A stretch of DNA of 32,000 nt from Nostoc sp. PCC 7120 = FACHB-418. Its GTDB lineage: Bacteria; Cyanobacteriota; Cyanobacteriia; Cyanobacteriales; Nostocaceae. How positions within the stretch are numbered: the first letter of the stretch is position 1; each line of letters begins with the position of its first letter. The translations under genes were made by a program, and so were the position numbers. The stretch is from positions 2,730,001 to 2,762,000 of the forward strand of contig NC_003272.1 in NCBI RefSeq assembly GCF_000009705.1, given 5' to 3'. Under the pieces are notes generated by a model. The model saw nothing but the letters and a program-made list of their open reading frames with translations. It searched no databases and was not told the origin of the DNA. This document shows positions 11,688 to 26,736 of this stretch, piece after piece.

Positions 11688-12257
11688 ATGTATGGTTTAG
11701 TGAACAAAGCCATTCAAGACATGATTAGCAAGCATCACGGCGAAGATACATGGGAAGCCATCAAGCAAAAAGCCGGACTGGAAGATATTGATTTTTTCGT
11801 AGGGATGGAAGCTTATAGTGATGATGTTACTTATCATTTGGTTGGTGCCGCTAGTGAAGTATTGGGTAAGCCTGCCGAGGAACTGCTGATAGCCTTTGGG
11901 GAATACTGGGTGACATATACATCCGAAGAAGGCTATGGAGAACTTTTAGCTAGTGCGGGAGACTCTTTACCAGAGTTTATGGAAAACCTTGATAACCTTC
12001 ATGCCAGAGTAGGCTTAAGTTTTCCTCAGCTTCGTCCCCCCGCTTTTGAGTGTCAACACACCAGTAGCAAGTCGATGGAACTCCACTACCAATCAACTCG
12101 CTGTGGTTTAGCTCCAATGGTGCTTGGTTTACTCCACGGATTAGGGAAACGCTTTCAGACAAAAGTTGAAGTTACTCAAACCGCTTTTCGTGAGACTGGT
12201 GAGGATCACGATATCTTCTCTATTAAATACGAAGACTCGAATTTATATGACGACTGA
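11688..12257 (+). CDS. H-NOX (heme nitric oxide/oxygen-binding) sensor protein
   Basis: 189 aa. The proximal His105 codon is at 12000-12002 ([10 protein letters not shown]). The heme-propionate motif Y134-x-S136-x-R138 is present (HYQSTR). The sequence matches my recollection of the crystallised Nostoc sp. PCC 7120 H-NOX (alr2278). Confidence 0.97.
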
Positions 12258-15200
12258 TAGGGATAGTAGCTCCAAAAAATTTGGTCTTTCTCCCGAACAA
12301 TTTGCTGCTTTGTTCCCCTTCCATCTGGTTATAGATCGAGAATTAAAGATTGTTCAGGCGGGTGAGGTAATTCAGCGTATTTTGGAGCCTATGGTGCTTC
12401 TTGATAGTTATTTGGGAGAGCATTTTCAAATCAGTCGCCCCAAATGCCTAACTAGCTTTGAAGGGATTTGCCAACAAACGCGATCGCTTTTCATTCTACA
12501 AGCCCACTATCAGGAAATACAGCTAAAGGGACAAATGTTAAATTTAGAGTCCCGCGATCATCTGCTATTTCTTGGTTCTCCTTGGATTACTGATATCGCT
12601 GATTTAAAAAATCTGGGATTGAAGATCAATGATTTCCCTCTACATGACTCTGTTTCCGATTATTTGTTTCTGTTACAGGCTAAAAATTCTGCCCTTGCTG
12701 ATGCTCAAAAACTGACTACAAAACTCAAAGACCAAAAGACTGAATTACAAACAACAGCCTTACGACTGAGGACACTAATTGAGAGTTTACAGTCTGGCAT
12801 TCTCCTGGAAGATGCAAACCAGCATATTATTCTAGTAAATCAAGAATTTTGTGATTACTTTCGCATTCCTCTACCTCCACAAGCTTTGCAAGGTATGGAT
12901 TGTCAGCAAGCTTTGGAAGCGAGTAAACATCTATTCACTGAACCAGAGAGATTTATTTGCACCACAGATGAGATCATCCGTCAAGGCAAAATGTTTCTCC
13001 ATCAAGAATGGGAACTTCAAGATGGACGCACCTTAGAGCAAAACTATATACCGATTGTGGTTGATCATAAACTTTATGGTCATCTGTGGAAATATCGTGA
13101 CATTACCCAATACAAAAAATCAGAAGTTGCTTTGAGGTTAAGTGAGGAACGATTAAAGCTGGCTGTAGATGCTGTAGAAGAAGGTCTATGGGACTGGAAT
13201 CTAGTCACGGGAGAAGTTTATCGTAGCGCACGTTGGTTTACCATGTTGGGTTACACCCCTATGGAAATTGGCAACGATATTAAATTCAGAGATAAGTTGA
13301 TCCATCCAGATGATATCCCCTTGATGCAGCAAAGGCTGATATCCCACCTCAAAGGTGATACTCCTTTCTATGAAGTAGAAATACGTTTACTCGCTAAATC
13401 TGGAGAATGGAGGTGGATTCTCGACCGGGGTAAATTAGTGAGTCGGGATTCTCAGGGTAGAGCTATCAGAATGGTGGGAACTCATTTAGATATTACCCAA
13501 CGGAAACAGGCAGAACAAGACCTACAGCAGCAATATCAACACACTTTACTGCTGAAACAAATCACAGAAGAAATCCGCCAGTCCTTACAATGGGAAAAAA
13601 TTCTCAAGACAACAGTTACAGAAGTTCAGCGAATTTTACAAGTTGATCGCGCCCTGATTTTCCAAATCAATTCTGATGGTTCTGGCAAAGTGGTTCAAGA
13701 GGCGGTAATGCCTGGATGGTCAGTCACTTTAGACCAAGATATTTATGATCCCTGCCTCAAAGATGGATACCTTAATATGTATCGGGATGGACGCATTACT
13801 GCCATTGCTGATGTGTATCAAGGGGGTTTGAAACCTTGCTATGTAGAATTCTTGCAACAGTTCCAGGTCAAAGCTAATTTGGTTGTACCAATTCGAGTGC
13901 GACGAAATTTGTGGGGGTTATTAATTGTCCATCAGTGCGATCGCCCCAGGCAATGGACGGAATTAGAATTGGATCTCCTCAAACATCTGGCAGATCAAAT
14001 GGGTATTGCCCTCACCCAATCCCAATTATTGGCTCAGGAAACTAGGCAAGCCCAATTATTAGCGCTGCAAAATGAAGAACTGAACGTTGCTAAACAAGTA
14101 GCAGAGAAGGCAAATATGGCTAAGAGTAATTTCCTGGCCACCATGAGCCATGAAATTCGTACTCCGATGAATGCCATCATTGGTATGAGTGGACTGCTCC
14201 TAGATACTACCCTCAAACCTGAGCAATTCGACTATGTAGAAACTATTCGCAACAGCAGTCACACATTATTAACAATCATTAATGACATCCTCGACTTTTC
14301 TAAAATTGAGTCTGGCAAATTAGAACTAGAAGAACAACCTTTTGATTTACGCCTTTGTGTGGAAGAAGCCTTAGATTTACTGGCTCCTCAAGCAGCCTCA
14401 AAAGGCATCGAACTCATGTACCAACTAGAACCAGACACACCCACTTTAGTTGTGGGTGACATTACTCGTATCAGGCAAATTCTGTGGAATTTGGTCAGTA
14501 ATGCGGTCAAGTTTACCAAAATTGGCGAAATATGTATCACTATTGGGGCAAAACAGAAGATTTATAAACAGACAGACCCTACTCGCTACGAATTTCAATT
14601 TGCAGTCCAAGATACGGGTATTGGCATAGAACGCGATCGCCTACATCGATTATTCAAACCTTTTAGTCAAGTCGATGCCTCCATGACTAGACGCTATGGT
14701 GGTACAGGCCTGGGACTGGCAATCAGTAAGCGCCTGAGTGAAATCATGGGCGGCAAAATGTGGGTAGAAAGTCAATCGCATCAAGGCTCTATTTTCTATT
14801 TCACTGCTACCTTACAGGTCAATTCCTCTGCCATCAATAGCGCCGCCAAGGTCGATCCAGAATTGGTTGGCAAACGATTACTGCTAGCAGTCGGTAACGC
14901 CAACTTGAGAAAATGCTTAACCCGGCAACTCCAGTCCTTAGGATTAGATGTCCAGGCTGTAGATTCCAACGCGACGGCGCTACATTGTCTATGGCAACAT
15001 ACTTCCCTAGCTCTAGCTGTGTTAGATGTTGATAGCCCACAGATCAACGGCCTCCACCTCAGTACAAAAATCCGTGCTATTCCCCAGCATCAGAATTTAC
15101 CTCTGGTGATGTTGAGTGCTAAAGGCAAACAAACTTTAGAAGTGAAGCAAGTAGCATCGGAATTTACGGCTTTTCTACATAAACCCCTGCGCCATTACCA

Positions 15201-16146
15201 GTTACACAATACACTTTTGCAAATTGTACGTGGTAAGTGGTTGAGCAAATCCACCCCTCAAGGCATAATTCCCTCTTACTCCCGCTTACCTAAACCCAAT
15301 CTCCCAGCTATTGATACCCATCTGGCGGAAAATTTGCCGCTCAAAATTCTTCTAGTTGAAGACGTGTTGGTGAATCAGAAAATTGCGATGAATATGCTGC
15401 ATCTGTTGGGATATCGTACCGATGTCGCTAACAATGGCTTAGAAGCTCTGGAAGCGCTACAAAGACAACTCTATGATGTTGTGTTTATGGATATTCAGAT
15501 GCCGGAAATGGATGGCTGGGAAACCACCCACAAAATTCGCCAGGAATTTTCCCCTACTCTTCAACCTTGGATCATTGCCATGACTGCCCACGCCCGCCCA
15601 GAAGATCGTCAGCAGTGCTTGGCAGCAGGTATGGATGACTACATAAGTAAGCCGATCAGCCTAGAAGATATCACCACAGCTTTGAAAAAGTTCGGTAGTC
15701 AGCGTCAACCAGCATTAGAGTCTCCCGCATCGGTGTCTATATCTGCCCCACCTGCACCTACCCCACAACCCAAAATAGAAGAGGTAATTGACCAACAGAC
15801 TTTAGAATACCTGCGAAATTTAGGTGGTAGCGACGAAGCAGATGAGGATGGAGGCGGTAGTAGTATCATCACTGAGTTAATCCAACTTTACCTAGAAGAT
15901 ACCCCAGCCAAAATTCAGGCAATTCAAGATGCAGCAACCTTGGAAGACCGTTCACAGTTAGCCAGAATAGCTCACGCTTTGCGATCGCCTAGTGTGAGTA
16001 TTGGAGCTATTAACCTGGGAAAAATCTGTGAAACCGTGGAGGATGAAGCCAAGGAACAATCAATGGATCAACTTACTGCTTTGGTTAATCAACTCAACAA
16101 CGAATATCAAAATGTTGTAGCGGCACTTAAAACCCTTATTTTTTAA
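12247..16146 (+). CDS. Hybrid sensor histidine kinase: HNOBA-PAS-PAS-GAF-HisKA-HATPase-pseudoREC-REC-Hpt
   Basis: The HNOBA region resembles that of soluble guanylate cyclase ([36 protein letters not shown]). The H-box is SHEIRTPMN (His codon 14149-14151) and the ATPase boxes are [16 protein letters not shown] and [10 protein letters not shown]. The receiver Asp is in [13 protein letters not shown] (codon 15490-15492) and the Hpt His is in IAHALRSPS (codon 15973-15975). ATG 12247 is preferred; it overlaps the H-NOX 3' end by 11 nt. The track's TTG 12166 would add 27 aa inside the H-NOX gene. Confidence 0.93.
12280..12808 (+). other. HNOBA (heme-NO-binding associated) domain region of the hybrid kinase (approximate bounds)
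   Basis: Motif-level resemblance to the sGC HNOBA/PAS-like dimerisation region plus a following coiled coil ([23 protein letters not shown]). Confidence 0.75.
14872..15230 (+). other. Degenerate (pseudo-)receiver domain inside the hybrid kinase (approximate bounds)
   Basis: The segment is receiver-like ([11 protein letters not shown]...[14 protein letters not shown]...LVMLSAKG...FLHKPL). The N-terminal acidic pair is replaced by GN, while the downstream canonical REC has VED. Confidence 0.6.
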
Positions 16147-16185
16147 AATAAATAGCATTTTTCTCTTAGCTCAAATTAAAAAAAT

Positions 16186-17451
16186 ATGAAAGAAAATACA
16201 TTTTCCTCAGTCCCCAATCTGAATTACCCCTCATCCTCAGAATGGTCGCCACCTTACCCAGCCCCCCAGCCTCCATCTCCACCCACTAAAGTCAAAATCT
16301 TAGTAATTGATGATGATCGCATCATCCAATTAATTCTCAAACAGGCATTGCAAGAACAAGGCTATGAAGTCATTCTCGCCACCAATGGTTTACAAGGAAT
16401 CGAGCAAGCCGATAAACACCACCCAGCACTGATAATTTGTGATTGGCAAATGGATGAAATGGATGGTTTAGAAGTGTGCCGCAAAATTAAATCAGAGCCA
16501 ACCCTATCTACGACTTTTTTTATTCTCTTAACCTCACGGCGAGCTGTAGAAGACCGAGTGGAAGGCTTAGATACGGGGGCAGATGATTTTTTAAGCAAAC
16601 CAATTGACGTAAATGAACTCAAAGCCCGTGTACGCTCTGGCTTGAGGCTATATCAAACAAATCAAGAACTGCAAAGATTAGCGCAAGATTTACAACTCCA
16701 AAAACAGCTTTTAGAAACAGAGTTGAATGAAGCGGCTGATTATGTCAAATCGATTCTTCCCCAACCTTTATCGGGATTAATCAACATCAATTCTCAATTT
16801 TTGCCCTCTAGTCAATTAGGTGGTGATTGTTTTGATTACTACTGGCTTGATGATGATCATTTAGTTATCTACCTGCTGGATGTTTCTGGACATGGATTGG
16901 CAGCAGCATTACCATCAATTTCCATACATAATCTACTGCGATCGCGTTCTCTTCCTCAAGCTGATCTATACGATCCCGCACAAGTTCTCCGAGACTTAAA
17001 TCTTTTCTTTCAAATGGATCAGCAAAATTGTCAATACTTTACGATGTGGTACGGAGTTTTTAAGCGGAGTTCTCAGCAGCTCACTTATGCTAGCGCCGGT
17101 CATCCTCCAGCTTTACTACTTTCTCCTTCCACTGACTCTCAATTAGATATCCAAAAGTTAGCCACTCGCAGTCTGCCAATTGGAGCATTTACAGAAGCAA
17201 AATATTGCAATGCTATCTGTAATATCCAAAGCGGTAGTAAACTCTATGTATTTAGTGATGGAGTTTATGAAGTGGAAAAATCTGATGGTAATATGTGGAA
17301 TTTTGAAAGCTTCATTAAGGTAATAGCTATGTGCAATCAACCACTCGAAGAAGGGTTAAGTGAGATTTTAGAAGCCATAAAAACTACCACTGGTAGTCAA
17401 ATATTCAACGATGACTGCTCTTTAATAGAAATAAATTTTGTTCTTAAGTAA
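16186..17451 (+). CDS. Response regulator with C-terminal PP2C/SpoIIE-type serine phosphatase domain (RsbU-like)
   Basis: 421 aa. The REC domain shows ILVIDDD, IICDWQMDEMDG and LSKP. The PPM/SpoIIE-type motifs are LGGDCFDY, LLDVSGHGLAAAL, YASAGHPP and VFSDGVYE. It starts 39 nt downstream of the hybrid kinase on the same strand. Confidence 0.92.
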   Translation: MKENTFSSVPNLNYPSSSEWSPPYPAPQPPSPPTKVKILVIDDDRIIQLILKQALQEQGYEVILATNGLQGIEQADKHHPALIICDWQMDEMDGLEVCRKIKSEPTLSTTFFILLTSRRAVEDRVEGLDTGADDFLSKPIDVNELKARVRSGLRLYQTNQELQRLAQDLQLQKQLLETELNEAADYVKSILPQPLSGLININSQFLPSSQLGGDCFDYYWLDDDHLVIYLLDVSGHGLAAALPSISIHNLLRSRSLPQADLYDPAQVLRDLNLFFQMDQQNCQYFTMWYGVFKRSSQQLTYASAGHPPALLLSPSTDSQLDIQKLATRSLPIGAFTEAKYCNAICNIQSGSKLYVFSDGVYEVEKSDGNMWNFESFIKVIAMCNQPLEEGLSEILEAIKTTTGSQIFNDDCSLIEINFVLK

Positions 17452-17529: not shown

Positions 17530-18228
17530 TCATGGTTGATTAGTTTTATCTTTCATTGATTGTATAGTTGTAGGTAATCCTAGCAATAGAGATGCCAAAT
17601 CAATATCTTTGGCGTTCTGCAAAATTTGTGGTGAGGCAAGAGGAAAGTCTTGCTGATAAAGTCGTAAATGATTAATTAGTTGATTAACACCAGTCTCTAT
17701 TTCCTGAAAATCGATATAATCTAAGTTGGTTGAATGGTTGATTTCCTGCTGTTTTTCCAAAACCAATTGATTATTTACATATATTTCCTTACTTTGAACT
17801 TCTGGTAATTGATCAGATGACACTAAAGAACTTTTATTTTTTATCTCTTGCACATACTCTAAAGCACGGTTCATAGTGCTTTCTAATTCTTGAAAATCTA
17901 TAGGCTTAGTAATAAAATCAAAAGCACCTTGATTCATGGCTCGTCTAATGTTTTTGAGATCCTCGTAAGCAGATACAATGACAGCTTTAATATCTAAATT
18001 CAGATCCCGTATTTTACTAAGTAAAGTTAGCCCATCTATCTCCGGCATATTAATATCAGTTACTAATAAATCTATTTGCGGATTTGCTTGTAATTTTTCC
18101 AAGGCATCTCTACCATTATGAGCAAAGATAAATTCATATTCTCCTTGACGTATCTTATGCCGAAAATAATGAGTTACTAAACGTTTTATTAATGGTTCGT
18201 CGTCAACAAATAATATATACTCAGTCAT
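17530..18228 (-). CDS. Response regulator: REC domain plus an approximately 130-aa C-terminal region of unknown function
   Basis: REC motifs are ILFVDDEP, LLVTDINMPEIDG, VSAY and TKP. ATG 18228 (MTEYILFVDD) is preferred and forms an ATGACTGA overlap with the upstream kinase stop (18221-18223). The track's TTG 18345 would add 39 aa inside that gene. Confidence 0.88.
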   Translation of the reverse strand: MTEYILFVDDEPLIKRLVTHYFRHKIRQGEYEFIFAHNGRDALEKLQANPQIDLLVTDINMPEIDGLTLLSKIRDLNLDIKAVIVSAYEDLKNIRRAMNQGAFDFITKPIDFQELESTMNRALEYVQEIKNKSSLVSSDQLPEVQSKEIYVNNQLVLEKQQEINHSTNLDYIDFQEIETGVNQLINHLRLYQQDFPLASPQILQNAKDIDLASLLLGLPTTIQSMKDKTNQP

Positions 18229-21200
18229 ATTTGCAACCCTGATATTCAGGAAAGGATAAATTAATTGGTATTGTAAGAACGAATTCCGTATATTCTCCAA
18301 CTTCAGTGTTAATCTTAATATCTCCCTGGTGTTGTCCGACAACAATATCGTGAATCAAAGATAATCCTAAACCTGTTCCTTCACCAGGTGGTTTAGTAGT
18401 AAAAAATGGATTGAAAATTTTATCAATCACCTCTGGTGCTATACCTTGGCCATTATCTCGGATAATAATTAGCAATGATTCGCCCTGATTTTGGGTTTTC
18501 ACAAAAAGTTTTGGAATGAATTTATCACCAACCTCCTGCTTTTTTTTGTAAGCTGCGTAGCAAGCATTGTCAACAATATTAATCAAAGCTCGACTTATAT
18601 CTTGAAATATTATTGCTACTTCTGGTAAAGAGGAATCATAATCGGTGTCAATAGTAATATTAAAACCGTTAAGTTTATTAGATAGACTATGATAAGCCAG
18701 TTGTACTGCTGTTTCAAGCAGTGAATTTATATCAGTAAATTGTGGTTGATTATTACTATCGGAACGTGCCAACAATAACATATTTTGAATAATATTGTCT
18801 GCTCTCAACCCTTGTTGCTCGATTTCTACTGAATTGTCTACTATATCAGTAATAGTTCCTTTAATATACTCAATTAATTCGGAGTTTAAAGTTTCAGACT
18901 GATTCTCAATTTCTGCTAATATTTCCTTACCTAATTCCGCAGAAATAGCTGCAAAATTATTGACAAAATTAAGCGGATTCCTAATTTCGTGGGCAACTCC
19001 AGCAGTCAGCAACCCTAGTGAAGCTAGTTTTTCTTGAGCAATAATTTTATTTTGAGCGGCTTTTAATTGACTGGTTCTTTCCTCAACTTTAATTTCTAGA
19101 TTTCGGGAATAGTATTCTAACTGTTCATATAGTAAAGCATTCTCTAAAGAAATGGCAGCTTGCGAACATAATAGTTGCAAAATTTCTAGGCGATCGCTTG
19201 TAAAAAAATCTATAGTTAGGTTATTCTCTAAATAGAGAATGCCTATCAATTTTCCTTGATTAATAATTGCTGTTGCTAAAACTGATTTTGGTTTGTGAGA
19301 TTGAATATATAGATCATTTCCAAAATTAGGCTCATCAATAGCATCACTTAACACTACATCCTCATAAGTCCGGGCTACATAATTAATTACTGATAAAGGT
19401 AAACTATCTTCAGATAAAGGTGTCGAGGAGTGTATGCAAACACTTCCTTCTATATTTATTGAGACTTCTATTTTTAGTTGTTCGTTGCGATTAAGAATTA
19501 AGCAACCATTAGATGCGCCAGCATTTTCAATTGTAATGCTCATCAATTTCTTCAACAATTCACTCAGAACTATTTCTCCTGATATTGCTTGTGAAGCTTT
19601 GACGACCGTAGCTATATCTAAAAATTCGCCCCGACGGTTATGAGTCGTAATAACATCATGATTAGTTGATAAACTGTTTTTAACACCACCCATTACTGGC
19701 GTTTTCCCTAGTAGTTGTGGATATTTTGCCAATATATCTTCTAGTTTGCGTTCTGCACCCCATAATTGATAACTATAATGAGCATCAATCATGTAAATTT
19801 TGGCAATATTTTCTCTCCCCTGACTTAACCAAAATTTAGCAGCTAGTTCATTAGCTAAGGCTACATTCTGGGTAAATTCATATTCTTGTGCTGATTTAAT
19901 TGCTTGGTCATACAAGTTCATCGCCTCTAAATATTGGCCAGAAATCCGTGCTATTTCCGCCTCTACTAACAAATATTTATGCAGGAAGTTTTCTGGGCTA
20001 TTATCTGCCCAAAGTTTCATCAATTTTTGATTATTTAGCAATTTTTGCCAAAACTCTGCTTGTTCCTCTGGAGTCACTTTGAGATATGTTGATGCTAGAA
20101 TTAGTGACTGATAAAAATTTTGGTCAGCAACAGGAATTAGACCCTTTAAATATTCTAAATATTTTTCTGCTTCTAACGAACATTTAAGTGCTGCTAAATC
20201 TTCGTCATACAGGTAGAGAATTTGCGATTTAAATGTTAAATAACAAAATAAAGGCGCAAAACTATGACGATTTTCACAGCCTGTTAAATATTCATCTTCG
20301 CTAATTTCACTAATACCAAAATCTAATTTATCTGATGTTCTAGATGTGATATTGAATAAACCAAGCCGTGCCGCCAGCATGGTATCTTTTGCCCATTGAT
20401 TCTGATTTCTTTGGACAAATTCTAACCCGTTATCTAATTCAGCTAATACATCTTCTAAGACGACTCCTTCAAATAAGGTATTAAATAACTGGAAAGCCAA
20501 AATATATCCAGCAAATTGTAAATCTCCCGATTCTAGCCCTGCATGATATCCTTCTTGGTTGATTGCACGCGTAAATTTAATATGTTTAACCCAGTTAGTT
20601 TGAAAATTCGCCAGTACAAAACAAGCTTTACATTTCTGAGCTAAATTATTAAATTTTTCACTAACTTTTAGCGCTAACTTGCCAAATTCATAACCAGTTT
20701 GATAGTCTCCCCAAATAGCACCTAGCAGCATCCCATAATTGGTATAGCCCTTAACTGATTCACCTAAATTCCCATATTTAAGTGATAAGTTCAATGATTC
20801 TAAAACAATTATTTTGTAAAGTTTTTGATCAGCAAGATAACTGGCTGGATCAATATTCATTAATAAATGTAATGCTACTATTTTTTCAGGAATAACCATC
20901 TCTGGTTTATTGATAAATTCAGCAATGTCTTGATTAGCTATGAGTTGATTCGCCTCGTTGATCAATACTTCTAAGTTAGCTTCAAAGTCAGATTCTGGTA
21001 AATAAATACCCAAGAGAGCTAAACCTTTACGACCTGATGCAATAGCTTGATTCAGATTGCCTAATAAAGTGTACTGTACAATTAGTAAATTATAAATTTT
21101 CGCTTTTTCTAGATTCGTTTTTGCTTGCTCAAGTAAGATAGAAATTAAAGATTGAGATTGGGGAAAATTCCCTAGTAAATACTCTACCTCTGACCTTTCC

Positions 21201-23572
21201 CAGTGCAAATTCAAAGCTAAATTATAATGTTCACACCAGATATCCCCAGGTAAAATATTGATACCTGAAATCAAATATTGTAAAGCTGCACTGTAGGCGT
21301 TAGCTTCTTTAGCTTTTTTAGCTGCTGCCAAATTTAACTGAGATAATTCAACTCTTTGAATATCATTAATGAGTAGTTCCCAACTTATATTGAGATGATC
21401 TACTACTTCAAATATCCTATTTGCTAGTTCTGTCTCCGAAATATTCTGCAACAGTAGTTGCCCGATTTGCAGATGAATATTACGTTTTTTATCTTGATCG
21501 ATTAAGGCGTAAGCTGCTTGTTGTACTCTGTCATGAAGAAATTTATAGTTAATTATTAATAGTGGTGATTTAACTAAATCTGCTTCTGTAATTTCTAAAT
21601 CAGAAGTAGGTACAATTAGGCCTTCTTGAGTAGCAGGAAGCAAGTCTCTAAAAGTGCTAAAAGTCGATTTTTCCGAAATAATTGCTAGTGTACTTAAATC
21701 AAAACTATTACCTACACAAGCAGATAAACGTAAAATTTGCTGAGTATTAACTGGCAGTTTTTTTAACTTATTGATCATCAAATCAACAACATTGTCTGTA
21801 ATGCCCAGTTCTTCAATTTGGACAATATTCCAATGCCAGCTAAGACTTGAAAAATCAAATATTAATAAGTCCTCTTGATATAACGTTTTCAAAAATTGGT
21901 TAACGAAAAATGGATTACCGCCAGTTTTAGACAGTACCAGTTCTGCCAATGGTTGAGCAGAGATAAAATCACTGTATATACTTTCAGAGATTAATTGATT
22001 AACAGTTTCTAAATTTAGGGGTAATAAATTAATTTCCTTAATTGTCAAACCTGATTTTTTTAATCCTTCAATAGTGATAATAGTAGGGTGATTGATGTGA
22101 ACCTCATTATCTCGATATGCGCCAATTAGAAACAAATATCCTAACTTTTTATCTCTCATAATTAAATCAATTAATTTGAGAGTAGCAGAATCCGCCCATT
22201 GCAAATCGTCTAAAAATATAGCTAAAGGGTGTTCTTTTTGACAAAATACATGAATAAAATTGTGAAAGACCAAGTTAAACCGATTCTGTGATTCAGCCGG
22301 GCCTAATTCTTGAACTGCTGGTTGCTTACCAATAATTAATTCCAATTCAGGAATCACATCAATTATTACCTGAGCATTGATTCCTAAAACCGTTAATAGT
22401 TTATTTTTCCATTCTTGGAGTTGGGTTTCATTTTCTGTTAAAAGTTGGCGAATGAGTGATTGAAATGCTTTAACTACTGCACTATAAGGGATATTTTTTT
22501 GAAATTGGTCAAATTTACCCGCAATGAAATATCCCCGGCGCTCAGTAATGGGTTTATAAATTTCCTGGACTAATGTTGATTTACCAATACCAGAATAACC
22601 AGCAACCAGCATCATTTCTGTTGTTCCTTGACTAACTCTGGTAAATGCTGTTAGTAAGTTATTAATTTCTCCTTCTCTTCCATATAGTTTTTGGGGAATT
22701 TGAAATTTATCCGAAATATCTTGACTTCCAAGAGAAAATGATGTGTTTTTACCTTCTTGGTATTGTGTTAAACAAAATTCTAAATCTGCTTTAATACCCA
22801 ACGCACTTTGATATCTCTCCTCAGCAGTTTTTGCCATCAATTTCATGACAATATCCGAGAGAGTTTTGGGTATATTTGAGTGGATTTCATGGGGAGGAAT
22901 GGGTTGTTTAGCTAGGTGACAATAGACTAGCTCTAAGGAATCAGTGGTATCAAAAGGTAATTGTTTAGTTAATAATTCATAAAAAGTCACACCTAAAGAA
23001 TAAAAATCCGTCCGATAATCAAGGGCGCGGTTCATTCTTCCTGTTTGTTCAGGTGAAATATAGGCTAGAGTACCTTCTAAAACATTGGGGTGCTTGAGAG
23101 TGGTATTTTCACGCGTAAAGACTGTAGCAATACCAAAGTCAATGATTTTAACTTCGCCTGTTTTGGGATTAAAAACTATATTTGATGGATTAATATCTTT
23201 GTGAATAACATTAGCAGCGTGAATTTGCGCTAGAGTATCAGTAATTTTGATAGCGATCGCCAAAAATTTCTCTATAGAATTAATATTATGGAAATCTCTT
23301 AAATCTGTACCACCAAAGTCTTCTAAGATTATGACTAATGTTCTATAATATGGTTCTAAACTATAAGCTTTAATCACACCATCAAAATCTAGATTACGAG
23401 TAATTTCGTATTCTTGCTTATATCTAGTTAATTCTATAGGTGTAGGATATTCCTGCTTGAGGACTTTGATTATAACGCTTTGGTTGTCCTCCTGCCTGAT
23501 ACTTCTATATACTTCAGAGTTAGCGCTGTCATATATTTTTTCTACTATTTGATAACCTGTGAGCTTTACCAT
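18221..23572 (-). CDS. Giant multidomain sensor (HstK-type): Ser/Thr protein kinase - AAA/STAND-like NTPase - TPR-like helical repeats - GAF - HisKA - HATPase
   Basis: 1783 aa. Hanks-kinase elements are VIIKVLK, HKDINPSN, IDFG and SPEQ. Walker A is GYSGIGKST (22574-22600) and the Walker B-like motif is FLDDLQWAD. A long helical region and a GAF domain follow. The H-box is AHEIRNPLN (His codon 18989-18991) and the ATPase boxes are DNGQGI and GEGTGLGLS. Confidence 0.93.
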   Translation of the reverse strand: MVKLTGYQIVEKIYDSANSEVYRSIRQEDNQSVIIKVLKQEYPTPIELTRYKQEYEITRNLDFDGVIKAYSLEPYYRTLVIILEDFGGTDLRDFHNINSIEKFLAIAIKITDTLAQIHAANVIHKDINPSNIVFNPKTGEVKIIDFGIATVFTRENTTLKHPNVLEGTLAYISPEQTGRMNRALDYRTDFYSLGVTFYELLTKQLPFDTTDSLELVYCHLAKQPIPPHEIHSNIPKTLSDIVMKLMAKTAEERYQSALGIKADLEFCLTQYQEGKNTSFSLGSQDISDKFQIPQKLYGREGEINNLLTAFTRVSQGTTEMMLVAGYSGIGKSTLVQEIYKPITERRGYFIAGKFDQFQKNIPYSAVVKAFQSLIRQLLTENETQLQEWKNKLLTVLGINAQVIIDVIPELELIIGKQPAVQELGPAESQNRFNLVFHNFIHVFCQKEHPLAIFLDDLQWADSATLKLIDLIMRDKKLGYLFLIGAYRDNEVHINHPTIITIEGLKKSGLTIKEINLLPLNLETVNQLISESIYSDFISAQPLAELVLSKTGGNPFFVNQFLKTLYQEDLLIFDFSSLSWHWNIVQIEELGITDNVVDLMINKLKKLPVNTQQILRLSACVGNSFDLSTLAIISEKSTFSTFRDLLPATQEGLIVPTSDLEITEADLVKSPLLIINYKFLHDRVQQAAYALIDQDKKRNIHLQIGQLLLQNISETELANRIFEVVDHLNISWELLINDIQRVELSQLNLAAAKKAKEANAYSAALQYLISGINILPGDIWCEHYNLALNLHWERSEVEYLLGNFPQSQSLISILLEQAKTNLEKAKIYNLLIVQYTLLGNLNQAIASGRKGLALLGIYLPESDFEANLEVLINEANQLIANQDIAEFINKPEMVIPEKIVALHLLMNIDPASYLADQKLYKIIVLESLNLSLKYGNLGESVKGYTNYGMLLGAIWGDYQTGYEFGKLALKVSEKFNNLAQKCKACFVLANFQTNWVKHIKFTRAINQEGYHAGLESGDLQFAGYILAFQLFNTLFEGVVLEDVLAELDNGLEFVQRNQNQWAKDTMLAARLGLFNITSRTSDKLDFGISEISEDEYLTGCENRHSFAPLFCYLTFKSQILYLYDEDLAALKCSLEAEKYLEYLKGLIPVADQNFYQSLILASTYLKVTPEEQAEFWQKLLNNQKLMKLWADNSPENFLHKYLLVEAEIARISGQYLEAMNLYDQAIKSAQEYEFTQNVALANELAAKFWLSQGRENIAKIYMIDAHYSYQLWGAERKLEDILAKYPQLLGKTPVMGGVKNSLSTNHDVITTHNRRGEFLDIATVVKASQAISGEIVLSELLKKLMSITIENAGASNGCLILNRNEQLKIEVSINIEGSVCIHSSTPLSEDSLPLSVINYVARTYEDVVLSDAIDEPNFGNDLYIQSHKPKSVLATAIINQGKLIGILYLENNLTIDFFTSDRLEILQLLCSQAAISLENALLYEQLEYYSRNLEIKVEERTSQLKAAQNKIIAQEKLASLGLLTAGVAHEIRNPLNFVNNFAAISAELGKEILAEIENQSETLNSELIEYIKGTITDIVDNSVEIEQQGLRADNIIQNMLLLARSDSNNQPQFTDINSLLETAVQLAYHSLSNKLNGFNITIDTDYDSSLPEVAIIFQDISRALINIVDNACYAAYKKKQEVGDKFIPKLFVKTQNQGESLLIIIRDNGQGIAPEVIDKIFNPFFTTKPPGEGTGLGLSLIHDIVVGQHQGDIKINTEVGEYTEFVLTIPINLSFPEYQGCKYD

Positions 23573-23814: not shown

Positions 23815-24144
23815 TTAATACTGTGTAACTGTTTGCATAAAAGCTGCTTGATCAGGAAATACTTCAAAAACTTTTGATGTATCGCTCAGTTCAAGAATCA
23901 TCTTAATTTGTTCGTTGATTGAACAGAGTGCCAACCTAGCTTTTTTCTGTCGGACTGTTTTTAAAGTCAATAGTAGAGTGCCAAATCCAGAGCTATCCAT
24001 AAAAGTAACAAATTGAAAATCAATCAAAATAGTTGTGACATCTGATGTAATAGTTTTGCTGATTTCTTCATGAATTTGTCTGCCTTTTTTACCATCAAAA
24101 AAACCACTAGGTTGAATAATCTTGGTGTTTACATTGGAATACAT
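23815..24144 (-). CDS. STAS-domain anti-sigma-factor antagonist (SpoIIAA/RsbV-like)
   Basis: 109 aa. The conserved phosphorylation loop FMDSSGFG is present, with the candidate phospho-Ser51 codon at 23992-23994. GGGAGA lies just upstream of the ATG. Confidence 0.9.
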   Translation of the reverse strand: MYSNVNTKIIQPSGFFDGKKGRQIHEEISKTITSDVTTILIDFQFVTFMDSSGFGTLLLTLKTVRQKKARLALCSINEQIKMILELSDTSKVFEVFPDQAAFMQTVTQY

Positions 24145-24278: not shown

Positions 24279-24776
24279 TCAGTCTCTTGCATTTGGTAGT
24301 TCAACTTTAGGTACTAGATTTTTCTTGAGAAATAAGCAGTTTCTACCTGCTAATTCACGATTATAACTAACTGTCCAAGCATAGTCTCTCCTAAGTTTGA
24401 GGAAAAATATACAACCCCAATGAGCTTCATGATCTAAAGGATTAAATGCCTGATCGTTAGTTTTCTCACTAAGCTTTTCTAACGCTGCTTCAAAATTAAA
24501 AATATCGCCTTGATCCCAAATACAAATCTGGAAATATTGGGGATCAAGTGTCACCGCTAACTCAACAGGAGTTTGTGGATTTAAGTGTTTATGAGCATGA
24601 CGGACTGCATTTGTAAAGCCCTCAATTAATGCAGTTTGACCTTCTATCCAGATTTGATATGGTAGCTGTTTACAGTTGAATTTTTCAAACCATTCTACAA
24701 CTGTTGCGACTGCGTCCCAGTCGCTGGCAACTTGTAGAGTAGAATGGTGGGTTTGTGAATCTGTGTGCGGTGACAT
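24279..24776 (-). CDS. RsbW/SpoIIAB-like anti-sigma regulatory serine protein kinase (GHKL ATPase)
   Basis: 165 aa. It has the N-box LIEGFTNAVRHAH and a G1-like WDQGDIF, and its size is typical of partner-switching kinases. Its ATG (24774-24776) directly abuts the TAA stop (24777-24779) of the upstream sugar transferase. Confidence 0.8.
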   Translation of the reverse strand: MSPHTDSQTHHSTLQVASDWDAVATVVEWFEKFNCKQLPYQIWIEGQTALIEGFTNAVRHAHKHLNPQTPVELAVTLDPQYFQICIWDQGDIFNFEAALEKLSEKTNDQAFNPLDHEAHWGCIFFLKLRRDYAWTVSYNRELAGRNCLFLKKNLVPKVELPNARD

Positions 24777-25778
24777 TTAGACTGCCCCTGAATCCTTTTT
24801 AAAAACAACTATGATTGTTTTTAAAATTAATTTGAGATCGTAAACTAAACTCCAATTATTTTGATAACGCAAATCTAACTGAATGACATCCTCAAAATTA
24901 CGAATCTTTGAACGGCCATTGACTTGCCACTCACCACTAAGTCCAGGCTTGACATCCAGTCTTTGCCAATTTGCTACTTCATAATGTTCTAATTCATTGG
25001 GAGTTGGTGGACGAGTCCCGACCAAACTCATATCTCCTGTGAGAATATTCCAAAATTGGGGAAATTCATCTAAGCTAGTTTTACGTAAGAAGCGACCAAC
25101 ACGGGTAATTCGTGGGTCTTTGTCATTTTTAAAGAAAGCACCAGAAGCTTGATTAGGAATAGTATCTTTGAGTGCTTCTGCATTTGTCACCATCGAGCGG
25201 AACTTCCAGATGCGAAACCGTCGTCCCATCCAACCGCAACGAGTTTGGCTAAATAATACAGGACCAGGACTATCGAGTTTAATAGCGATCGCTATCGGCA
25301 CAAACAGCACGGCGGTAACACTCAAGCCGATGACAGCCCCCACAATGTCGATCGCACGTTTCATAGGCGATCGCACCGATGGATGGGTTAAGGGTGGACG
25401 CTGCTCAATTTTGCGTGTTGCTGTCGGGACAATTGCATCTGTATTGGCTTCGATGTTCAATATCTGCTCCAAACCGACAAGAGAAAAAGCCAATTTAACT
25501 TGAGGATGAATACTCCAAAAGATTAATTCAATCTTTTTTGCTTGTGCTGATTTATGATTACTAATTAATGACCCCACACCACTACTATCAATAATTGTGG
25601 TTTGACCAAAATCTAAGATAATCTTAGTCAAGCTAGAGTCTTCTATCCAACTTTGAAAATACTCGCGGAAAGATATAGCTTCAATTACCGTTAATCTTGG
25701 CGGTAACTGCACTAATAAAGTGCCATGAATCCGAGTTATAACTAGAGAAATTGGGGTTTTGGTATGAGGGCTAATCAT
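24777..25778 (-). CDS. STAS domain fused to a monotopic polyprenyl-phosphate phosphoglycosyl transferase (Bac_transf/PglC-WbaP C-terminal type priming enzyme)
   Basis: 333 aa counted from ATG 25778. Residues 10-112 or so are STAS-like, with IIDSSGVG (Ser65 codon 25584-25586). A linker follows, then KRAIDIVGAVIGLSVTAVLFVPIAIAI (re-entrant helix), DEFPQ, LVGTRPP and KPGLSGEWQV. The ATG forms an ATGA overlap with the upstream gene stop (25775-25778). The track's TTG 25841 is rejected. Confidence 0.88.
   Translation of the reverse strand: MISPHTKTPISLVITRIHGTLLVQLPPRLTVIEAISFREYFQSWIEDSSLTKIILDFGQTTIIDSSGVGSLISNHKSAQAKKIELIFWSIHPQVKLAFSLVGLEQILNIEANTDAIVPTATRKIEQRPPLTHPSVRSPMKRAIDIVGAVIGLSVTAVLFVPIAIAIKLDSPGPVLFSQTRCGWMGRRFRIWKFRSMVTNAEALKDTIPNQASGAFFKNDKDPRITRVGRFLRKTSLDEFPQFWNILTGDMSLVGTRPPTPNELEHYEVANWQRLDVKPGLSGEWQVNGRSKIRNFEDVIQLDLRYQNNWSLVYDLKLILKTIIVVFKKDSGAV
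25443..25751 (-). other. STAS domain portion of the priming glycosyltransferase (approximate bounds)
   Basis: It aligns by eye with the free STAS protein 23815-24144. Compare ILDFGQTTIIDSSGVGSL with LIDFQFVTFMDSSGFGTL, and LIFWSIHPQVKLAFSLVGLEQILNI with LALCSINEQIKMILELSDTSKVFEV. Confidence 0.8.
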
Positions 25779-26284: not shown

Positions 26285-26736
26285 AAACTTTCTTGAGGAA
26301 CGATTAATTCGGCTTGAGGATAAAGGGTTTGCAGTTGCGGCCACTGCACATATAAAACGCTGAGAAAAGGTAAAACTAACCTAGCGGATAAACTCAAAGT
26401 AATAATCCGCGTCACAGATTCGACAAACACTGTCTGACTACCAAATAATTTGCCAAGAATGAGAAAAGGGACAGCGACACCAGCACCAGTAGACAAGATT
26501 AAATCTGGTTTGGTTTTGCTAATTACTTGAAAGGCTAGAAGCAAATTTCTGAACAAATTAGGTAAATTGCGATTGGTGGGACTATAAGCCCAATACACTT
26601 TTTCTTCAGTTAAAGCGGCTTGTGTGGTTGCAGTTTTAAAAGTTACCCAGACTCGTTCGTGATTTTCCCAAAAAGGTTGCAATTGCTGGAGTCCTTTAAA
26701 ATGTCCACCGGAGGAGCAAATTAATAATACTTTCAT
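26281..26736 (-). CDS. Alg14-like glycosyltransferase membrane/acceptor subunit (PssD/Cps14F type)
   Basis: 151 aa. MKVLLICSSGGHF... is typical of Alg14-like proteins. It is paired with the Alg13-like gene immediately downstream. Confidence 0.8.
   Translation of the reverse strand: MKVLLICSSGGHFKGLQQLQPFWENHERVWVTFKTATTQAALTEEKVYWAYSPTNRNLPNLFRNLLLAFQVISKTKPDLILSTGAGVAVPFLILGKLFGSQTVFVESVTRIITLSLSARLVLPFLSVLYVQWPQLQTLYPQAELIVPQESL

What the first reader, a model, noticed from the sequence alone, without database searches (positions are those of the whole stretch)
11688..17451. H-NOX gas sensor operon ending in a PP2C phosphatase response regulator, a candidate NO input to the neighbouring partner switch
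Seen in the sequence:
- The H-NOX gene (His105, Y134-S136-R138) overlaps by 11 nt (12247-12257) the start of a hybrid kinase with an sGC-like HNOBA region, two PAS domains and a GAF domain.
- The kinase core is followed by a pseudo-receiver, a canonical receiver and an Hpt domain.
- A REC-PP2C gene follows 39 nt downstream.
- This is a self-contained His-Asp-His-Asp relay whose terminal output is a SpoIIE/RsbU-type serine phosphatase, not a DNA-binding or c-di-GMP domain.

Established knowledge: bacterial H-NOX proteins regulate partner kinases and biofilm in Shewanella, Vibrio and Legionella. The Nostoc H-NOX binds NO and CO but not O2. RsbU-type phosphatases act on phospho-STAS proteins.

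Inference: the nearest STAS substrates are the free STAS and the STAS-PGT, 6.4-8 kb away. NO or redox status could therefore control exopolysaccharide priming through dephosphorylation. The physiological output of this well-studied H-NOX protein is, to my knowledge, not established.
Basis: partly seen in the sequence, partly recalled or inferred. Interest (0 to 1): 0.68.

Follow-up and report, generated by a model that had tools for sequence, protein, structure and literature searches.

The report
H-NOX relay feeding an exopolysaccharide partner switch
In Nostoc/Anabaena PCC 7120, the well-studied haem gas sensor Alr2278 heads a phosphorelay ending in a protein phosphatase; related cyanobacteria nearly always place that phosphatase next to the STAS/kinase switch of a sugar-polymer gene cluster, which gives this sensor its first concrete, testable output.

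Summary
The window is the Nostoc/Anabaena sp. PCC 7120 chromosome: the H-NOX protein is 100% identical to PDB 2O09 (Alr2278).

I checked whether the link to the STAS/RsbW/exopolysaccharide (EPS) genes holds in other genomes, and it passed.
  - Counting the window, there are 24 loci with an Alr2280 (REC-PP2C phosphatase) orthologue.
  - In 17 of them the STAS and RsbW genes sit directly against the operon: convergent after the phosphatase, or co-directional before H-NOX.
  - In 3 they are split by an insertion. PCC 7120 is one of these, with all2281-all2282 in between.
  - In 3 they are absent within 10 kb, and 1 contig is too short to tell.
- **Core unit.** The phosphatase-STAS-RsbW trio stays together even where H-NOX, the kinase or the STAS-fused priming transferase is lost.
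- **Residues.** All catalytic and phospho-acceptor residues are conserved.
- **Literature.** Work from 2026 shows the paralogous HenR/All4160 pair works this way, and proposes that All2284 acts on All2285 without naming a phosphatase. A 2025 paper states that the partner of the Nostoc H-NOX is unknown.
- **Open points.** The sign of regulation and the true signal (NO or haem redox) are not settled. Four of seven H-NOX-sampled operons lack the phosphatase.

I classify this as a new variant of known kinds. It rests on comparative evidence, not biochemistry.

The parts
11688..12257 (+). alr2278, stand-alone H-NOX haem sensor (189 aa; proximal His105, Y134-S136-R138)
   Evidence: Pfam HNOB 183.6 bits. 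100% identical to PDB 2O09. Key residues are invariant in orthologues.
12247..16146 (+). alr2279, soluble hybrid histidine kinase. Domains by nucleotide position: HNOBA (~12283-12786), PAS (~12763-13125), PAS_3 (13216-13485), GAF (13594-14013), HisKA with H635 (14119-14316), HATPase_c (14455-14811), degenerate receiver (~14902-15213), canonical receiver with D1082 (15346-15684), Hpt with H1243 (15874-16122)
   Evidence: Pfam. The N-terminus matches PDB 2P04, the N. punctiforme kinase H-NOXA domain, at E=2e-28. It overlaps alr2278 by 11 nt. Phospho-acceptor residues are invariant in 20 orthologues.
16186..17451 (+). alr2280, response regulator with SpoIIE/PP2C serine phosphatase output (receiver 16297-16635 with D86; phosphatase 16849-17436)
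   Evidence: Pfam SpoIIE 146.4 bits and Response_reg 102.5 bits. The best solved relative is 3EQ2/3F7A, a REC-PP2C response regulator. Metal-binding Asp residues are invariant. The gene starts 39 nt after alr2279. The 23 core orthologues are monophyletic in 50/50 bootstraps.
17530..18228 (-). all2281, receiver-only protein with a ~110-aa C-terminal extension. The likely start is ATG at 18228, not the listed TTG at 18345.
   Evidence: Pfam Response_reg 90 bits. It sits between the phosphatase and STAS only in the window and in L001.
18221..23572 (-). all2282, a Ser/Thr kinase-AAA_16-TPR-GAF-histidine kinase protein (1783 aa). In this strain it separates the phosphatase from its STAS partner, but genes of this kind recur next to the H-NOX/kinase pair in other genomes.
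   Evidence: Pfam. Full-length homologues lie next to H-NOX/kinase in L001, L007, L018, L084, L088 (79% identity), L091 and L092, and in none of 66 other loci.
23815..24144 (-). all2283, single-domain STAS protein with D50-S51-S52-G53. Ser51 aligns with the phospho-serine of SpoIIAA. It is the proposed substrate of Alr2280 and antagonist of All2284.
   Evidence: Pfam STAS 55.2 bits. Alignment to SpoIIAA structures 1TH8/1TID. In 11 of the 18 species-representative loci (L001-L018) the orthologue lies convergent, directly after the phosphatase gene.
24279..24776 (-). all2284, RsbW-type serine kinase (E52, N56, H60, D88, G90)
   Evidence: Pfam HATPase_c_2 51 bits. It phosphorylates a STAS serine in vitro (PMC13555669). 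Its residues are invariant in orthologues.
24777..25841 (-). all2285, STAS domain (25437-25742; D85-S86-S87-G88) fused to a WbaP/PglC-type phosphoglycosyl transferase (24798-25361), the priming enzyme of the EPS cluster
   Evidence: Pfam Bac_transf 224.6 bits and STAS 58.1 bits. The C-terminus matches WbaP and PglC structures. DSSG is invariant in orthologues.
25775..31997 (-). all2286-all2292: Alg13/Alg14-like split transferase, two GT2, a Wzx-type flippase and two GT4. This is the EPS pathway ('cluster III') whose first step All2285 catalyses.
   Evidence: Pfam. The genes are co-linear with the STAS-transferase in most orthologous loci. all2285-all2286 are induced in biofilms (PMC13156569).

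Best explanation
alr2278-alr2279-alr2280 and all2283-all2284-all2285 together form one signalling unit. In this strain the two parts are split by all2281-all2282.

Proposed pathway:
1. The H-NOX haem protein modulates autophosphorylation of the HNOBA-PAS-PAS-GAF hybrid kinase Alr2279 (H635).
2. The phosphoryl group passes to D1082, then to Hpt H1243, then to D86 of the response regulator Alr2280.
3. This switches the SpoIIE/PP2C phosphatase domain of Alr2280.
4. Alr2280 opposes the RsbW-type kinase All2284 on the conserved serine of the free STAS protein All2283 (S51). It acts, directly or through partner switching, on the STAS domain of the priming phosphoglycosyl transferase All2285 (S86).
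5. This gates the first committed step of EPS 'cluster III' after translation.

Predicted sign, by analogy only:
- Ligand-free ferrous H-NOX leaves the kinase on, the phosphatase on, All2285 dephosphorylated and active, and EPS on.
- NO-bound or oxidised H-NOX gives the opposite.

What is shown here: gene and domain anatomy, residue conservation, and conserved gene linkage.
What is shown by others: the haem ligand chemistry of Alr2278, the kinase activity of All2284, and the HenR/All4160 precedent.
What is inferred: every contact between the proteins named here, and the sign.
For: 1. Anatomy and all catalytic or acceptor residues are intact and invariant in orthologues.

2. Linkage across 24 loci with an Alr2280 orthologue, counting the window:
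- 17 have STAS+RsbW directly adjacent.
- 3 are split by an insertion: the window, L001 and L085.
- 3 have none within 10 kb.
- 1 is too short to tell.
- Five arrangements occur: convergent, co-directional, insertion-split, IS-disrupted, and on the far side of the EPS cluster.
- A random 20-kb stretch of a ~7-Mb genome with five RsbW-type kinases would hold one about 1-2% of the time.

3. The trio persists when other parts are lost:
- L009 keeps only a stand-alone Hpt in front of the phosphatase.
- L014 and L093 lack the kinase and H-NOX.
- L008 and L017 lack the transferase.

4. Nearly all of the 62 paralogous REC-PP2C loci also have their own STAS and/or RsbW next door.

5. Precedent: HenR (REC-SpoIIE) activates the STAS-transferase All4160 by removing a phosphate from S74. 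All2284 phosphorylates a STAS serine in vitro, and its authors propose that it acts on All2285 without naming a phosphatase (PMC13555669).

6. No paper found links H-NOX to a partner switch. A 2025 paper says the partner of the Nostoc H-NOX is unknown.
Against: - No biochemical or genetic data exist for Alr2279, Alr2280, All2283 or All2285.
- Convergent neighbours are not co-transcribed, so the linkage argues for co-inheritance and not for co-expression.
- Sampling from H-NOX, 4 of 7 operons of this class have no phosphatase gene after the kinase (L084, L090, L091, L092).
- L016 and L088 keep the kinase and phosphatase but have no H-NOX gene. The haem sensor is therefore dispensable or replaceable, and the kinase has PAS and GAF sensors of its own.
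- Cross-talk is real: All2284 phosphorylates the paralogue All4160 in vitro.
- The sampled genomes are all Nostocales-type and are not phylogenetically independent.
- The sign of each step rests on analogy. One H-NOX (Caulobacter) is inert when NO-bound.
Confidence: 0.6

Rival explanations
1. The input is not NO. Alr2278 reports haem oxidation state, meaning cellular redox or O2-driven autoxidation in an oxygenic phototroph, or it reports CO. Alternatively the PAS/GAF domains of Alr2279 carry the physiological signal and H-NOX is only a modulator. The downstream pathway is as in the best explanation.
For: - A 2025 paper reports that the Nostoc H-NOX autoxidises in air to a six-coordinate ferric form, and that its earlier investigators proposed a redox-sensor role.
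- The Caulobacter H-NOX is activated by oxidation and not by NO.
- L016 and L088 retain the kinase and phosphatase without an H-NOX gene.
- The kinase has two PAS domains and a GAF domain.
Against: - The H-NOX keeps the full NO-type haem pocket: H105, P118 and YxSxR are invariant.
- NO- and CO-bound structures exist for this protein (2O0C, 2O0G).
- Almost every studied H-NOX/kinase pair responds to NO (statement).
- Moss-contact data point to NO signalling through Nostoc H-NOX genes, though probably of the other class.
Confidence: 0.3
2. Alr2280 does act on the free STAS All2283, but the output of the switch is whatever All2284 sequesters, such as a sigma factor or another protein encoded elsewhere. 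The STAS-transferase and the EPS genes are only co-located neighbours.
For: - L008, L017 and L093 keep the phosphatase-STAS-RsbW trio without an intact STAS-transferase.
- Classical partner switches release a sigma factor.
- Hmp- and Hcy-type cyanobacterial switches have unidentified outputs.
Against: - No sigma factor gene lies in any of the loci examined.
- In the loci that have a STAS-transferase, it directly abuts the RsbW gene, typically 3-60 nt away.
- Its DSSG serine is invariant.
- The paralogous All4160 is regulated through exactly this serine.
Confidence: 0.15
3. In PCC 7120 specifically, all2281-all2282 has rewired the system. The Ser/Thr-plus-histidine kinase All2282 and the receiver All2281 now control the STAS/RsbW/EPS genes on their own strand, and Alr2280 serves other STAS targets. 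Several partner-switch components exist in this genome.
For: - all2282-all2281 lie on the same strand as, and directly downstream of, all2283.
- PCC 7120 has five RsbW-type kinases, and cross-phosphorylation has been documented.
- All2282-like genes recur next to the H-NOX/kinase pair in other genomes.
Against: - All2281 has no phosphatase domain, and All2282 has no PP2C or STAS domain. They cannot replace the phosphatase.
- Alr2280, All2283 and All2284 keep every functional residue at 92-96% identity with N. parmelioides.
- The recurrence of All2282-like genes next to H-NOX fits an added input better than a replacement.
Confidence: 0.1
4. The proximity of the two gene sets is chance or simple inherited synteny, with no functional link.
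For: All sampled genomes belong to one order, and convergent genes share no transcript.
Against: - Adjacency survives five different rearrangements.
- It survives loss of H-NOX, the kinase or the transferase.
- It survives relocation to another contig together (L093).
- Expected chance co-occurrence is about 1-2% per locus, against 20 of 23 observed.
Confidence: 0.04

Closest known systems
HenR (REC-SpoIIE) / Alr3423 (RsbW-type kinase) / All4160 (STAS-phosphoglycosyl transferase) module of Anabaena PCC 7120 (Harada, Matsuoka, Ehira 2026; PMC13555669)
   Same: Same organism and the same three protein types. A receiver-controlled PP2C opposes an RsbW-type kinase on the STAS serine of a priming sugar transferase, so the enzyme and not a sigma factor is the output. 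All2284 from this window was tested there and phosphorylates a STAS serine.
   Different: - That module makes heterocyst envelope polysaccharide, and its genes are scattered.
- Its upstream histidine kinase and its signal are unknown.
- It has no free STAS partner described.
- Here the candidate kinase and sensor (H-NOX/Alr2279) are encoded with the phosphatase, a free STAS (All2283) is present, and the polysaccharide is EPS cluster III.
Bacterial H-NOX/histidine kinase systems (Shewanella HnoX-HnoK, Vibrio HnoX-HqsK, Pseudoalteromonas H-NOX-HahK, Silicibacter H-NOX-kinase-Hpt)
   Same: A stand-alone H-NOX gene overlaps or abuts a cytoplasmic kinase gene. Some of those kinases are hybrids with an Hpt step. 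The outputs govern biofilm and matrix (otherwise my own knowledge).
   Different: - Those pathways end in c-di-GMP enzymes, quorum-sensing relays or transcription factors. This one ends in a serine phosphatase and a partner switch.
- The kinase here carries an sGC-type HNOBA domain plus PAS-PAS-GAF, which the proteobacterial HnoK kinases lack.
Response-regulator PP2C partner switches fed by hybrid kinases or Hpt proteins: P. aeruginosa HptB-HsbR-HsbA, B. cereus RsbK-RsbY-RsbV-RsbW, V. fischeri SypE-SypA, N. punctiforme HcyA-D and HmpU/V/W
   Same: A His-Asp(-His-Asp) relay ends on a receiver-PP2C that dephosphorylates a STAS protein opposed by an RsbW-type kinase. SypE-SypA and HsbR-HsbA control polysaccharide or biofilm. 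Hcy also carries a multi-sensor hybrid kinase in its cluster (otherwise my own knowledge).
   Different: - None uses an H-NOX/HNOBA sensor.
- None has the STAS domain fused to the biosynthetic enzyme.
- HsbR and SypE carry kinase and phosphatase on one protein, whereas here they are separate genes.
The second class of cyanobacterial H-NOX operons (181-184 aa H-NOX, 58-69% identical to Alr2278; seen in Nostoc sp. CENA543, Fischerella thermalis, Leptolyngbyaceae JSC-12 and an ENA contig). N. punctiforme probably belongs here, but I did not check this.
   Same: An H-NOX gene is followed by an HNOBA-containing signalling protein.
   Different: The partner is a short HNOBA-HisKA-HATPase kinase, an HNOBA-only protein, an HNOBA-GGDEF-EAL protein, or (L087) a 701-aa kinase with two receivers. 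No Hpt, PP2C, STAS or RsbW lies within 10 kb.

Membership tests
H-NOX (Pfam HNOB) haem sensors, NO-selective type | Full-length HNOB fold match | tested here: met
   PF07700 183.6 bits, profile positions 1-162 of 163. Identical to solved structure 2O09.
H-NOX (Pfam HNOB) haem sensors, NO-selective type | Proximal histidine, haem-propionate Y-x-S-x-R motif and the haem-distorting proline | tested here: met
   H105, Y134, S136, R138 and P118 are present and invariant in the 18 orthologues that could be scored.
H-NOX (Pfam HNOB) haem sensors, NO-selective type | Binds NO/CO but not O2 | not testable with these tools
   Only indirect: NO- and CO-bound entries exist for the identical protein (2O0C, 2O0G listed), and autoxidation is reported.
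H-NOX-associated histidine kinase | Kinase gene adjacent to or overlapping the H-NOX gene, with intact HisKA histidine and ATPase domain | tested here: met
   11-nt overlap. HisKA 78.2 bits with H635, HATPase_c 95.8 bits. The same pairing occurs in 21 of 24 class-A loci with a kinase.
H-NOX-associated histidine kinase | Autophosphorylation controlled by the ligand state of H-NOX | not testable with these tools
   No published assay for Alr2279 was found.
Multistep His-Asp-His-Asp phosphorelay | Conserved H (HisKA), D (receiver), H (Hpt) and D (terminal receiver) | tested here: met
   H635, D1082, H1243 and Alr2280 D86 are invariant. In L009 a stand-alone Hpt is retained in front of the phosphatase after loss of the kinase.
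Partner-switching system (RsbU/RsbV/RsbW type) | SpoIIE/PP2C phosphatase with intact metal-binding aspartates | tested here: met
   PF07228 146.4 bits. D214, D217, D232, D358, D409 and D410 are invariant.
Partner-switching system (RsbU/RsbV/RsbW type) | STAS protein with the phosphorylatable serine | tested here: met
   All2283 S51 in DSSG aligns with the SpoIIAA phospho-serine position. All2285 S86 lies in DSSG.
Partner-switching system (RsbU/RsbV/RsbW type) | RsbW/SpoIIAB-type serine kinase | tested here: met
   PF13581 51 bits. Published in vitro STAS-serine kinase activity of All2284.
Partner-switching system (RsbU/RsbV/RsbW type) | The three components are encoded together | tested here: met
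   They are not contiguous in the window (6.4-kb gap). They are contiguous in 17 of 23 informative orthologous loci and linked in 20.
Partner-switching system (RsbU/RsbV/RsbW type) | A sigma factor released by the kinase | tested here: not met
   No sigma factor gene lies in the window or in any related locus examined. The output is inferred to be the STAS-fused transferase, as in the 'partner-switching-like' HenR/All4160 module.
Partner-switching system (RsbU/RsbV/RsbW type) | The phosphatase dephosphorylates the phospho-STAS | not testable with these tools
   Needs purified proteins.
STAS-fused phosphoglycosyl transferases (All4160 / XssP class) | N-terminal STAS plus C-terminal Bac_transf catalytic domain | tested here: met
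   STAS 58.1 bits at aa 34-135, Bac_transf 224.6 bits at aa 161-348. The catalytic part matches WbaP and PglC structures.
STAS-fused phosphoglycosyl transferases (All4160 / XssP class) | Activity switched off by phosphorylation of the STAS serine (S74 in All4160) | not tested
The equivalence rests on the shared DSSG/SpoIIAA register.

The most novel reading that the evidence does not exclude
A haem gas or redox sensor directly gates the first committed step of an exopolysaccharide pathway by protein phosphorylation alone. The chain is H-NOX, then hybrid kinase, then Hpt, then receiver-PP2C, then phospho-STAS on the priming transferase, with no c-di-GMP and no transcription factor. This would be the first H-NOX pathway ending in a serine phosphatase and the first physiological output for the structurally famous Nostoc H-NOX. 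The recurrent All2282-type Ser/Thr-plus-histidine kinase would act as a third, co-evolving input.
Probability: 0.4. Interest if true: 0.78.

Novelty: new variant of a known kind. Interest (0 to 1): 0.66.

Why it matters
- **A partner for a well-known protein.** Alr2278 is one of the most used structural models for the NO receptor soluble guanylate cyclase. A 2025 paper still states that its partner is unknown, so its haem states cannot be ranked for activity. The linkage found here names the kinase, the terminal response regulator and the likely substrates, so that experiment can now be done.
- **Two gaps in the 2026 work.** That work on STAS-fused priming transferases identified a kinase (All2284) with no phosphatase, and a class of receiver-phosphatases with no upstream kinase or signal. 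This locus offers candidates for both.
- **A new output type.** If true, it shows that H-NOX signalling can control matrix production after translation, at the enzyme, rather than through c-di-GMP.
- **Ecology.** It would link NO or redox cues, which are relevant to plant and moss symbiosis, to EPS, biofilm and desiccation tolerance in nitrogen-fixing cyanobacteria.

Tried and rejected
1. **Chance or artefact.** Rejected: coordinates, domains and residues are all confirmed, and the protein is identical to a PDB entry.
2. **all2281-all2282 as a recent mobile insertion.**
   - GC content drops to 0.33 across 17-25 kb, but the drop also covers all2283.
   - No flanking repeats or transposase genes were found.
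   - All2282-like genes recur beside H-NOX elsewhere.
   - I therefore dropped 'random insertion' and kept only 'lineage-specific placement'.
3. **Reverse sampling from metagenomes** with All2284 gave only one locus (L088). It was informative but too small for statistics.
4. **NJ tree of REC-PP2C proteins.**
   - The first script timed out, and the first rooting was misleading.
   - A split-based bootstrap gave 50/50 support for 23 core orthologues.
   - L086 and L019 are basal sisters, so L086 is treated as a distant orthologue only.
5. **RNA and terminators.** The Rfam scan of the window found nothing. Promoter and terminator consensus scans were at or below shuffle expectation and were not used.
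6. **Literature on the link.** Searches for any published H-NOX to PP2C/STAS link, or for NO effects on Anabaena EPS, found nothing specific.
7. **Not done.**
   - Structure prediction: single-chain models would not test the protein-protein contacts at issue.

Full report
**1. Where the window comes from and what it encodes**

The H-NOX ORF at 11688-12257 is 189/189 identical to PDB 2O09, 'Alr2278 protein'. The window is therefore the Nostoc/Anabaena sp. PCC 7120 chromosome or a near-identical strain. Gene numbers follow the literature.

| Gene | Coordinates (strand) | Product |
|---|---|---|
| purC, omp85, lpxC-fabZ-lpxA-lpxB | 420-7735 (+) | Nucleotide, outer-membrane and lipid A genes |
| Uma2 gene | 8046-8630 (-) | Uma2-family protein |
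| C5 DNA methylase gene | 8971-10266 (+) | DNA methyltransferase |
| Aldo-keto reductase gene | 10349-11314 (-) | Aldo-keto reductase |
| alr2278 | 11688-12257 (+) | H-NOX |
| alr2279 | 12247-16146 (+) | Hybrid histidine kinase |
| alr2280 | 16186-17451 (+) | REC-PP2C phosphatase |
| all2281 | 17530-18228 (-) | Receiver only |
| all2282 | 18221-23572 (-) | Ser/Thr kinase-AAA-TPR-GAF-histidine kinase |
| all2283 | 23815-24144 (-) | STAS |
| all2284 | 24279-24776 (-) | RsbW-type kinase |
| all2285 | 24777-25841 (-) | STAS-phosphoglycosyl transferase |
| all2286-all2292 | 25775-31997 (-) | Glycosyltransferases and flippase |

**2. Check of the observation**

All items hold.
- *H-NOX.* HNOB scores 183.6 bits. 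His105 and Y134-S136-R138 are present.
- *Kinase start.* The kinase ATG at 12247 overlaps the H-NOX stop by 11 nt. Orthologue alignments start at that Met.
- *Kinase domains.* Pfam finds HNOBA, two PAS regions, GAF, HisKA, HATPase_c, two receivers and Hpt. The N-terminus matches the solved H-NOXA domain of a N. punctiforme kinase, 2P04, at E=2e-28.
- *Receivers.* The first scores only 47.7 bits and lacks the acidic pair (G883-N884), but keeps D927, S957 and K979. The second is canonical.
- *Phosphatase.* It starts 39 nt after the kinase stop, at the only possible in-frame start. It has a complete receiver (D42, D43, D86, T116, K138) and complete SpoIIE metal ligands. Its best solved relative is a REC-PP2C response regulator, 3EQ2/3F7A.

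**3. The partner-switch genes**

- All2283 carries D50-S51-S52-G53, and S51 aligns with the phospho-serine position of SpoIIAA.
- All2285 joins a STAS domain (D85-S86-S87-G88) to a catalytic domain that matches WbaP and PglC structures. From published structural work on monotopic transferases of this type (my own knowledge), the single hydrophobic segment is probably re-entrant. That would leave the STAS domain in the cytoplasm, where a kinase and a phosphatase can reach it.
- All2284 has the N-box and G1 residues and is an active STAS-serine kinase in vitro.

**4. The decisive test: linkage in other genomes**

*Sampling from the phosphatase.* A scan of one genome per species with Alr2280 returned 18 loci at 70-96% identity and 62 at 53-59%. 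I mapped all window proteins onto these loci by tblastn.
- 11 of the 18 have STAS and RsbW convergent, directly after the phosphatase. The stop codons are often a few bases apart or overlapping. The loci are L002-L005, L007-L009, L014, L015, L017 and L018.
- 3 have the order GTs > STAS-transferase > RsbW > STAS > (H-NOX) > kinase > phosphatase, all on one strand (L010, L012, L016).
- L001 (N. parmelioides, 96% identical) copies the window, with all2281-all2282 in between.
- L006 and L013 have no STAS within 10 kb. L011 is too short to tell.

*Sampling from H-NOX, and one look-up from RsbW* added these loci:
- L089 has the full convergent layout.
- L085 has the same genes, broken up by insertion sequences.
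- L086 has the operon on the far side of the same EPS cluster.
- L093 (Aetokthonos) has RsbW > STAS > < phosphatase (72% identical) with a decayed remnant of the transferase. Its H-NOX and kinase lie on another contig (L084).
- The one metagenome locus, L088, also has the full convergent layout, but no H-NOX gene.

*Tally.* Counting the window, 24 loci carry the phosphatase orthologue.

| STAS+RsbW relative to the operon | Loci |
|---|---|
| Directly adjacent | 17 |
| Split by an insertion | 3 |
| None within 10 kb | 3 |
| Uninformative (contig too short) | 1 |

PCC 7120 has five RsbW-type kinases in about 7 Mb, so a random 20-kb stretch would contain one roughly 1-2% of the time.

*Phylogeny.* The 23 core orthologues form a clade in 50 of 50 bootstrap trees.

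**5. What is core and what is accessory**

- The phosphatase-STAS-RsbW trio survives loss of H-NOX plus kinase. L009 retains only a 115-aa stand-alone Hpt in front of the phosphatase. L014 and L093 lack both genes.
- It survives loss of H-NOX alone (L016, L088).
- It survives loss of the transferase (L008, L017, L093).
- The retained Hpt in L009 is natural evidence that Hpt is the phosphodonor for this receiver.
- In the other direction, 4 of 7 H-NOX-sampled operons of this class have no phosphatase after the kinase (L084, L090, L091, L092).
- A second cyanobacterial H-NOX class (181-184 aa, 58-69% identical) pairs with short HNOBA kinases, a 701-aa kinase with two receivers, or an HNOBA-GGDEF-EAL protein. 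It is never near PP2C or STAS.
- The H-NOX/long-kinase pair is therefore a sensor cassette that is usually, but not always, docked to this partner switch.
- Nearly all of the 62 paralogous loci have their own STAS and/or RsbW next door. This phosphatase family is therefore habitually encoded beside its substrate.

**6. Literature**

- Harada et al. (PMC13555669 and its preprint) showed that HenR (REC-SpoIIE) is needed to activate the STAS-transferase All4160, and that an S74A variant bypasses HenR.
- In the same work, Alr3423 is the relevant kinase. All2284 also phosphorylates that STAS in vitro but is irrelevant in vivo.
- The authors propose that All2284 acts on its neighbour All2285. They name no phosphatase for it, and they note that the kinase and signal for HenR are unknown.
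- all2285-all2286 (EPS 'cluster III') are induced in biofilms.
- A survey lists alr2278-2280 and all2293-all2283 as operons among biofilm candidates, without connecting them.
- A 2025 Biochemistry paper says the Nostoc H-NOX may be a redox sensor. [quoted passage not shown]
- Warshan et al. linked Nostoc H-NOX and HNOBA genes to moss symbiosis and speculated about c-di-GMP.
- I found no paper that connects H-NOX to a PP2C/STAS switch.

**7. Mechanism proposed**

*Shown here:* gene and domain anatomy, conserved residues and conserved linkage.

*Shown by others:* the haem-ligand chemistry of Alr2278, the kinase activity of All2284, and the HenR/All4160 precedent.

*Inferred:*
- H-NOX modulates Alr2279.
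- The phosphoryl group passes H635 > D1082 > H1243 > Alr2280 D86.
- The phosphorylated receiver turns the phosphatase on, as in RsbY, HsbR and SypE (my own knowledge).
- Alr2280 removes the phosphate that All2284 puts on All2283 S51 and All2285 S86.
- Dephospho-All2283 may also sequester All2284, which would sharpen the switch.
- Dephospho-All2285 is active and primes the EPS.

In most H-NOX systems the NO-bound form inhibits the kinase. The default prediction is therefore that NO or haem oxidation lowers EPS priming. I hold the sign with low confidence.

**8. Comparison and novelty**

- It works like the HenR/All4160 module and like receiver-PP2C partner switches such as HsbR-HsbA, RsbK-RsbY, SypE-SypA and Hcy.
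- Upstream it works like H-NOX/kinase pairs.
- It fails one classical criterion of a partner-switching system: no sigma factor is present.
- The combination of H-NOX/HNOBA input, serine phosphatase output and an enzyme-fused STAS target is not described in the literature I could search.
- I classify it as a new variant of known kinds.

**9. Limits**

- All evidence for the contacts between these proteins is comparative.
- The genomes sampled are related to one another.
- Convergent neighbours are not co-transcribed.
- Cross-talk among STAS modules is documented.
- The signal (NO, CO or redox) and the sign are open.

Noticed in passing
window 18221-23572 (-); L007 2-5257, L018 8-5269, L084 4183-9540, L088 16756-20436, L091 14938-20337, L092 1-9769: Full-length Ser/Thr kinase-AAA_16-TPR-GAF-histidine kinase genes like all2282 lie directly beside the H-NOX/long-kinase pair in 8 of 27 loci of this class and in 0 of 66 other loci (Fisher p=2e-5, not corrected for phylogeny). 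Their position and orientation vary, and L088 carries a 79%-identical orthologue. This may be a third component of the system rather than a random insertion.
   Followed up: partly
window 17001-25000: GC content falls to 0.32-0.35, against about 0.43-0.47 elsewhere. The drop covers all2281, all2282 and all2283, with all2284 at 0.39. There are no flanking repeats, transposases or tRNA-like marks, and the cause is unexplained.
   Followed up: partly
L081 10001-11052, L082 8279-11505, L083 5528-11995, L087 10001-12694: A second class of cyanobacterial H-NOX (181-184 aa) pairs with short HNOBA kinases, a 701-aa kinase with two receivers (L087), an HNOBA-only protein or an HNOBA-GAF-PAS-GGDEF-EAL protein. 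In both Fischerella (L082) and Leptolyngbyaceae JSC-12 (L083), a methyltransferase gene plus a haem-oxygenase-like (Haem_oxygenas_2/TENA) gene sit just upstream of the H-NOX.
   Followed up: no
L009 9449-9796: Cronbergia sp. UHCC 0137 has lost H-NOX and the kinase but keeps a stand-alone 115-aa Hpt protein directly upstream of the phosphatase. It is 52% identical to the Alr2279 Hpt and retains the His.
   Followed up: yes
L004 11166-13117 and 17631-19677; L007 11148-11786; L018 11154-11789: One Nostoc genome has a tandem second copy of STAS-RsbW-STAS-transferase. Two others have two free STAS genes in tandem after the phosphatase.
   Followed up: no
L084 14615-15058; L092 14551-14994: In two loci where the phosphatase is missing, the kinase is followed by a 147-aa ORF. 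In L084 it is a lone HATPase_c domain (97.6 bits). Its origin and role are unknown.
   Followed up: no
window 17530-18345 (-): The mechanical ORF for all2281 starts at a TTG that overlaps the end of all2282 by 125 nt. The receiver domain begins right after an internal ATG at 18228, which overlaps the all2282 stop codon region (all2282 ends at 18221) by 8 nt. The true product is therefore probably 232 aa and translationally coupled to all2282.
   Followed up: partly
window 8046-10266: A Uma2-family putative endonuclease gene (-) and a C5 cytosine DNA methyltransferase gene (+) sit between the lipid A genes and the H-NOX locus. The same pair is present in N. parmelioides (L001).
   Followed up: no
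L085 2029-8381: In the genome GCA_000331305.1, the phosphatase/STAS/RsbW/transferase/GT28/Alg14 block next to H-NOX is riddled with three or four transposase genes. The GT28 and Alg14 genes are fragmented, and the phosphatase receiver is truncated. The module looks to be decaying.
   Followed up: partly
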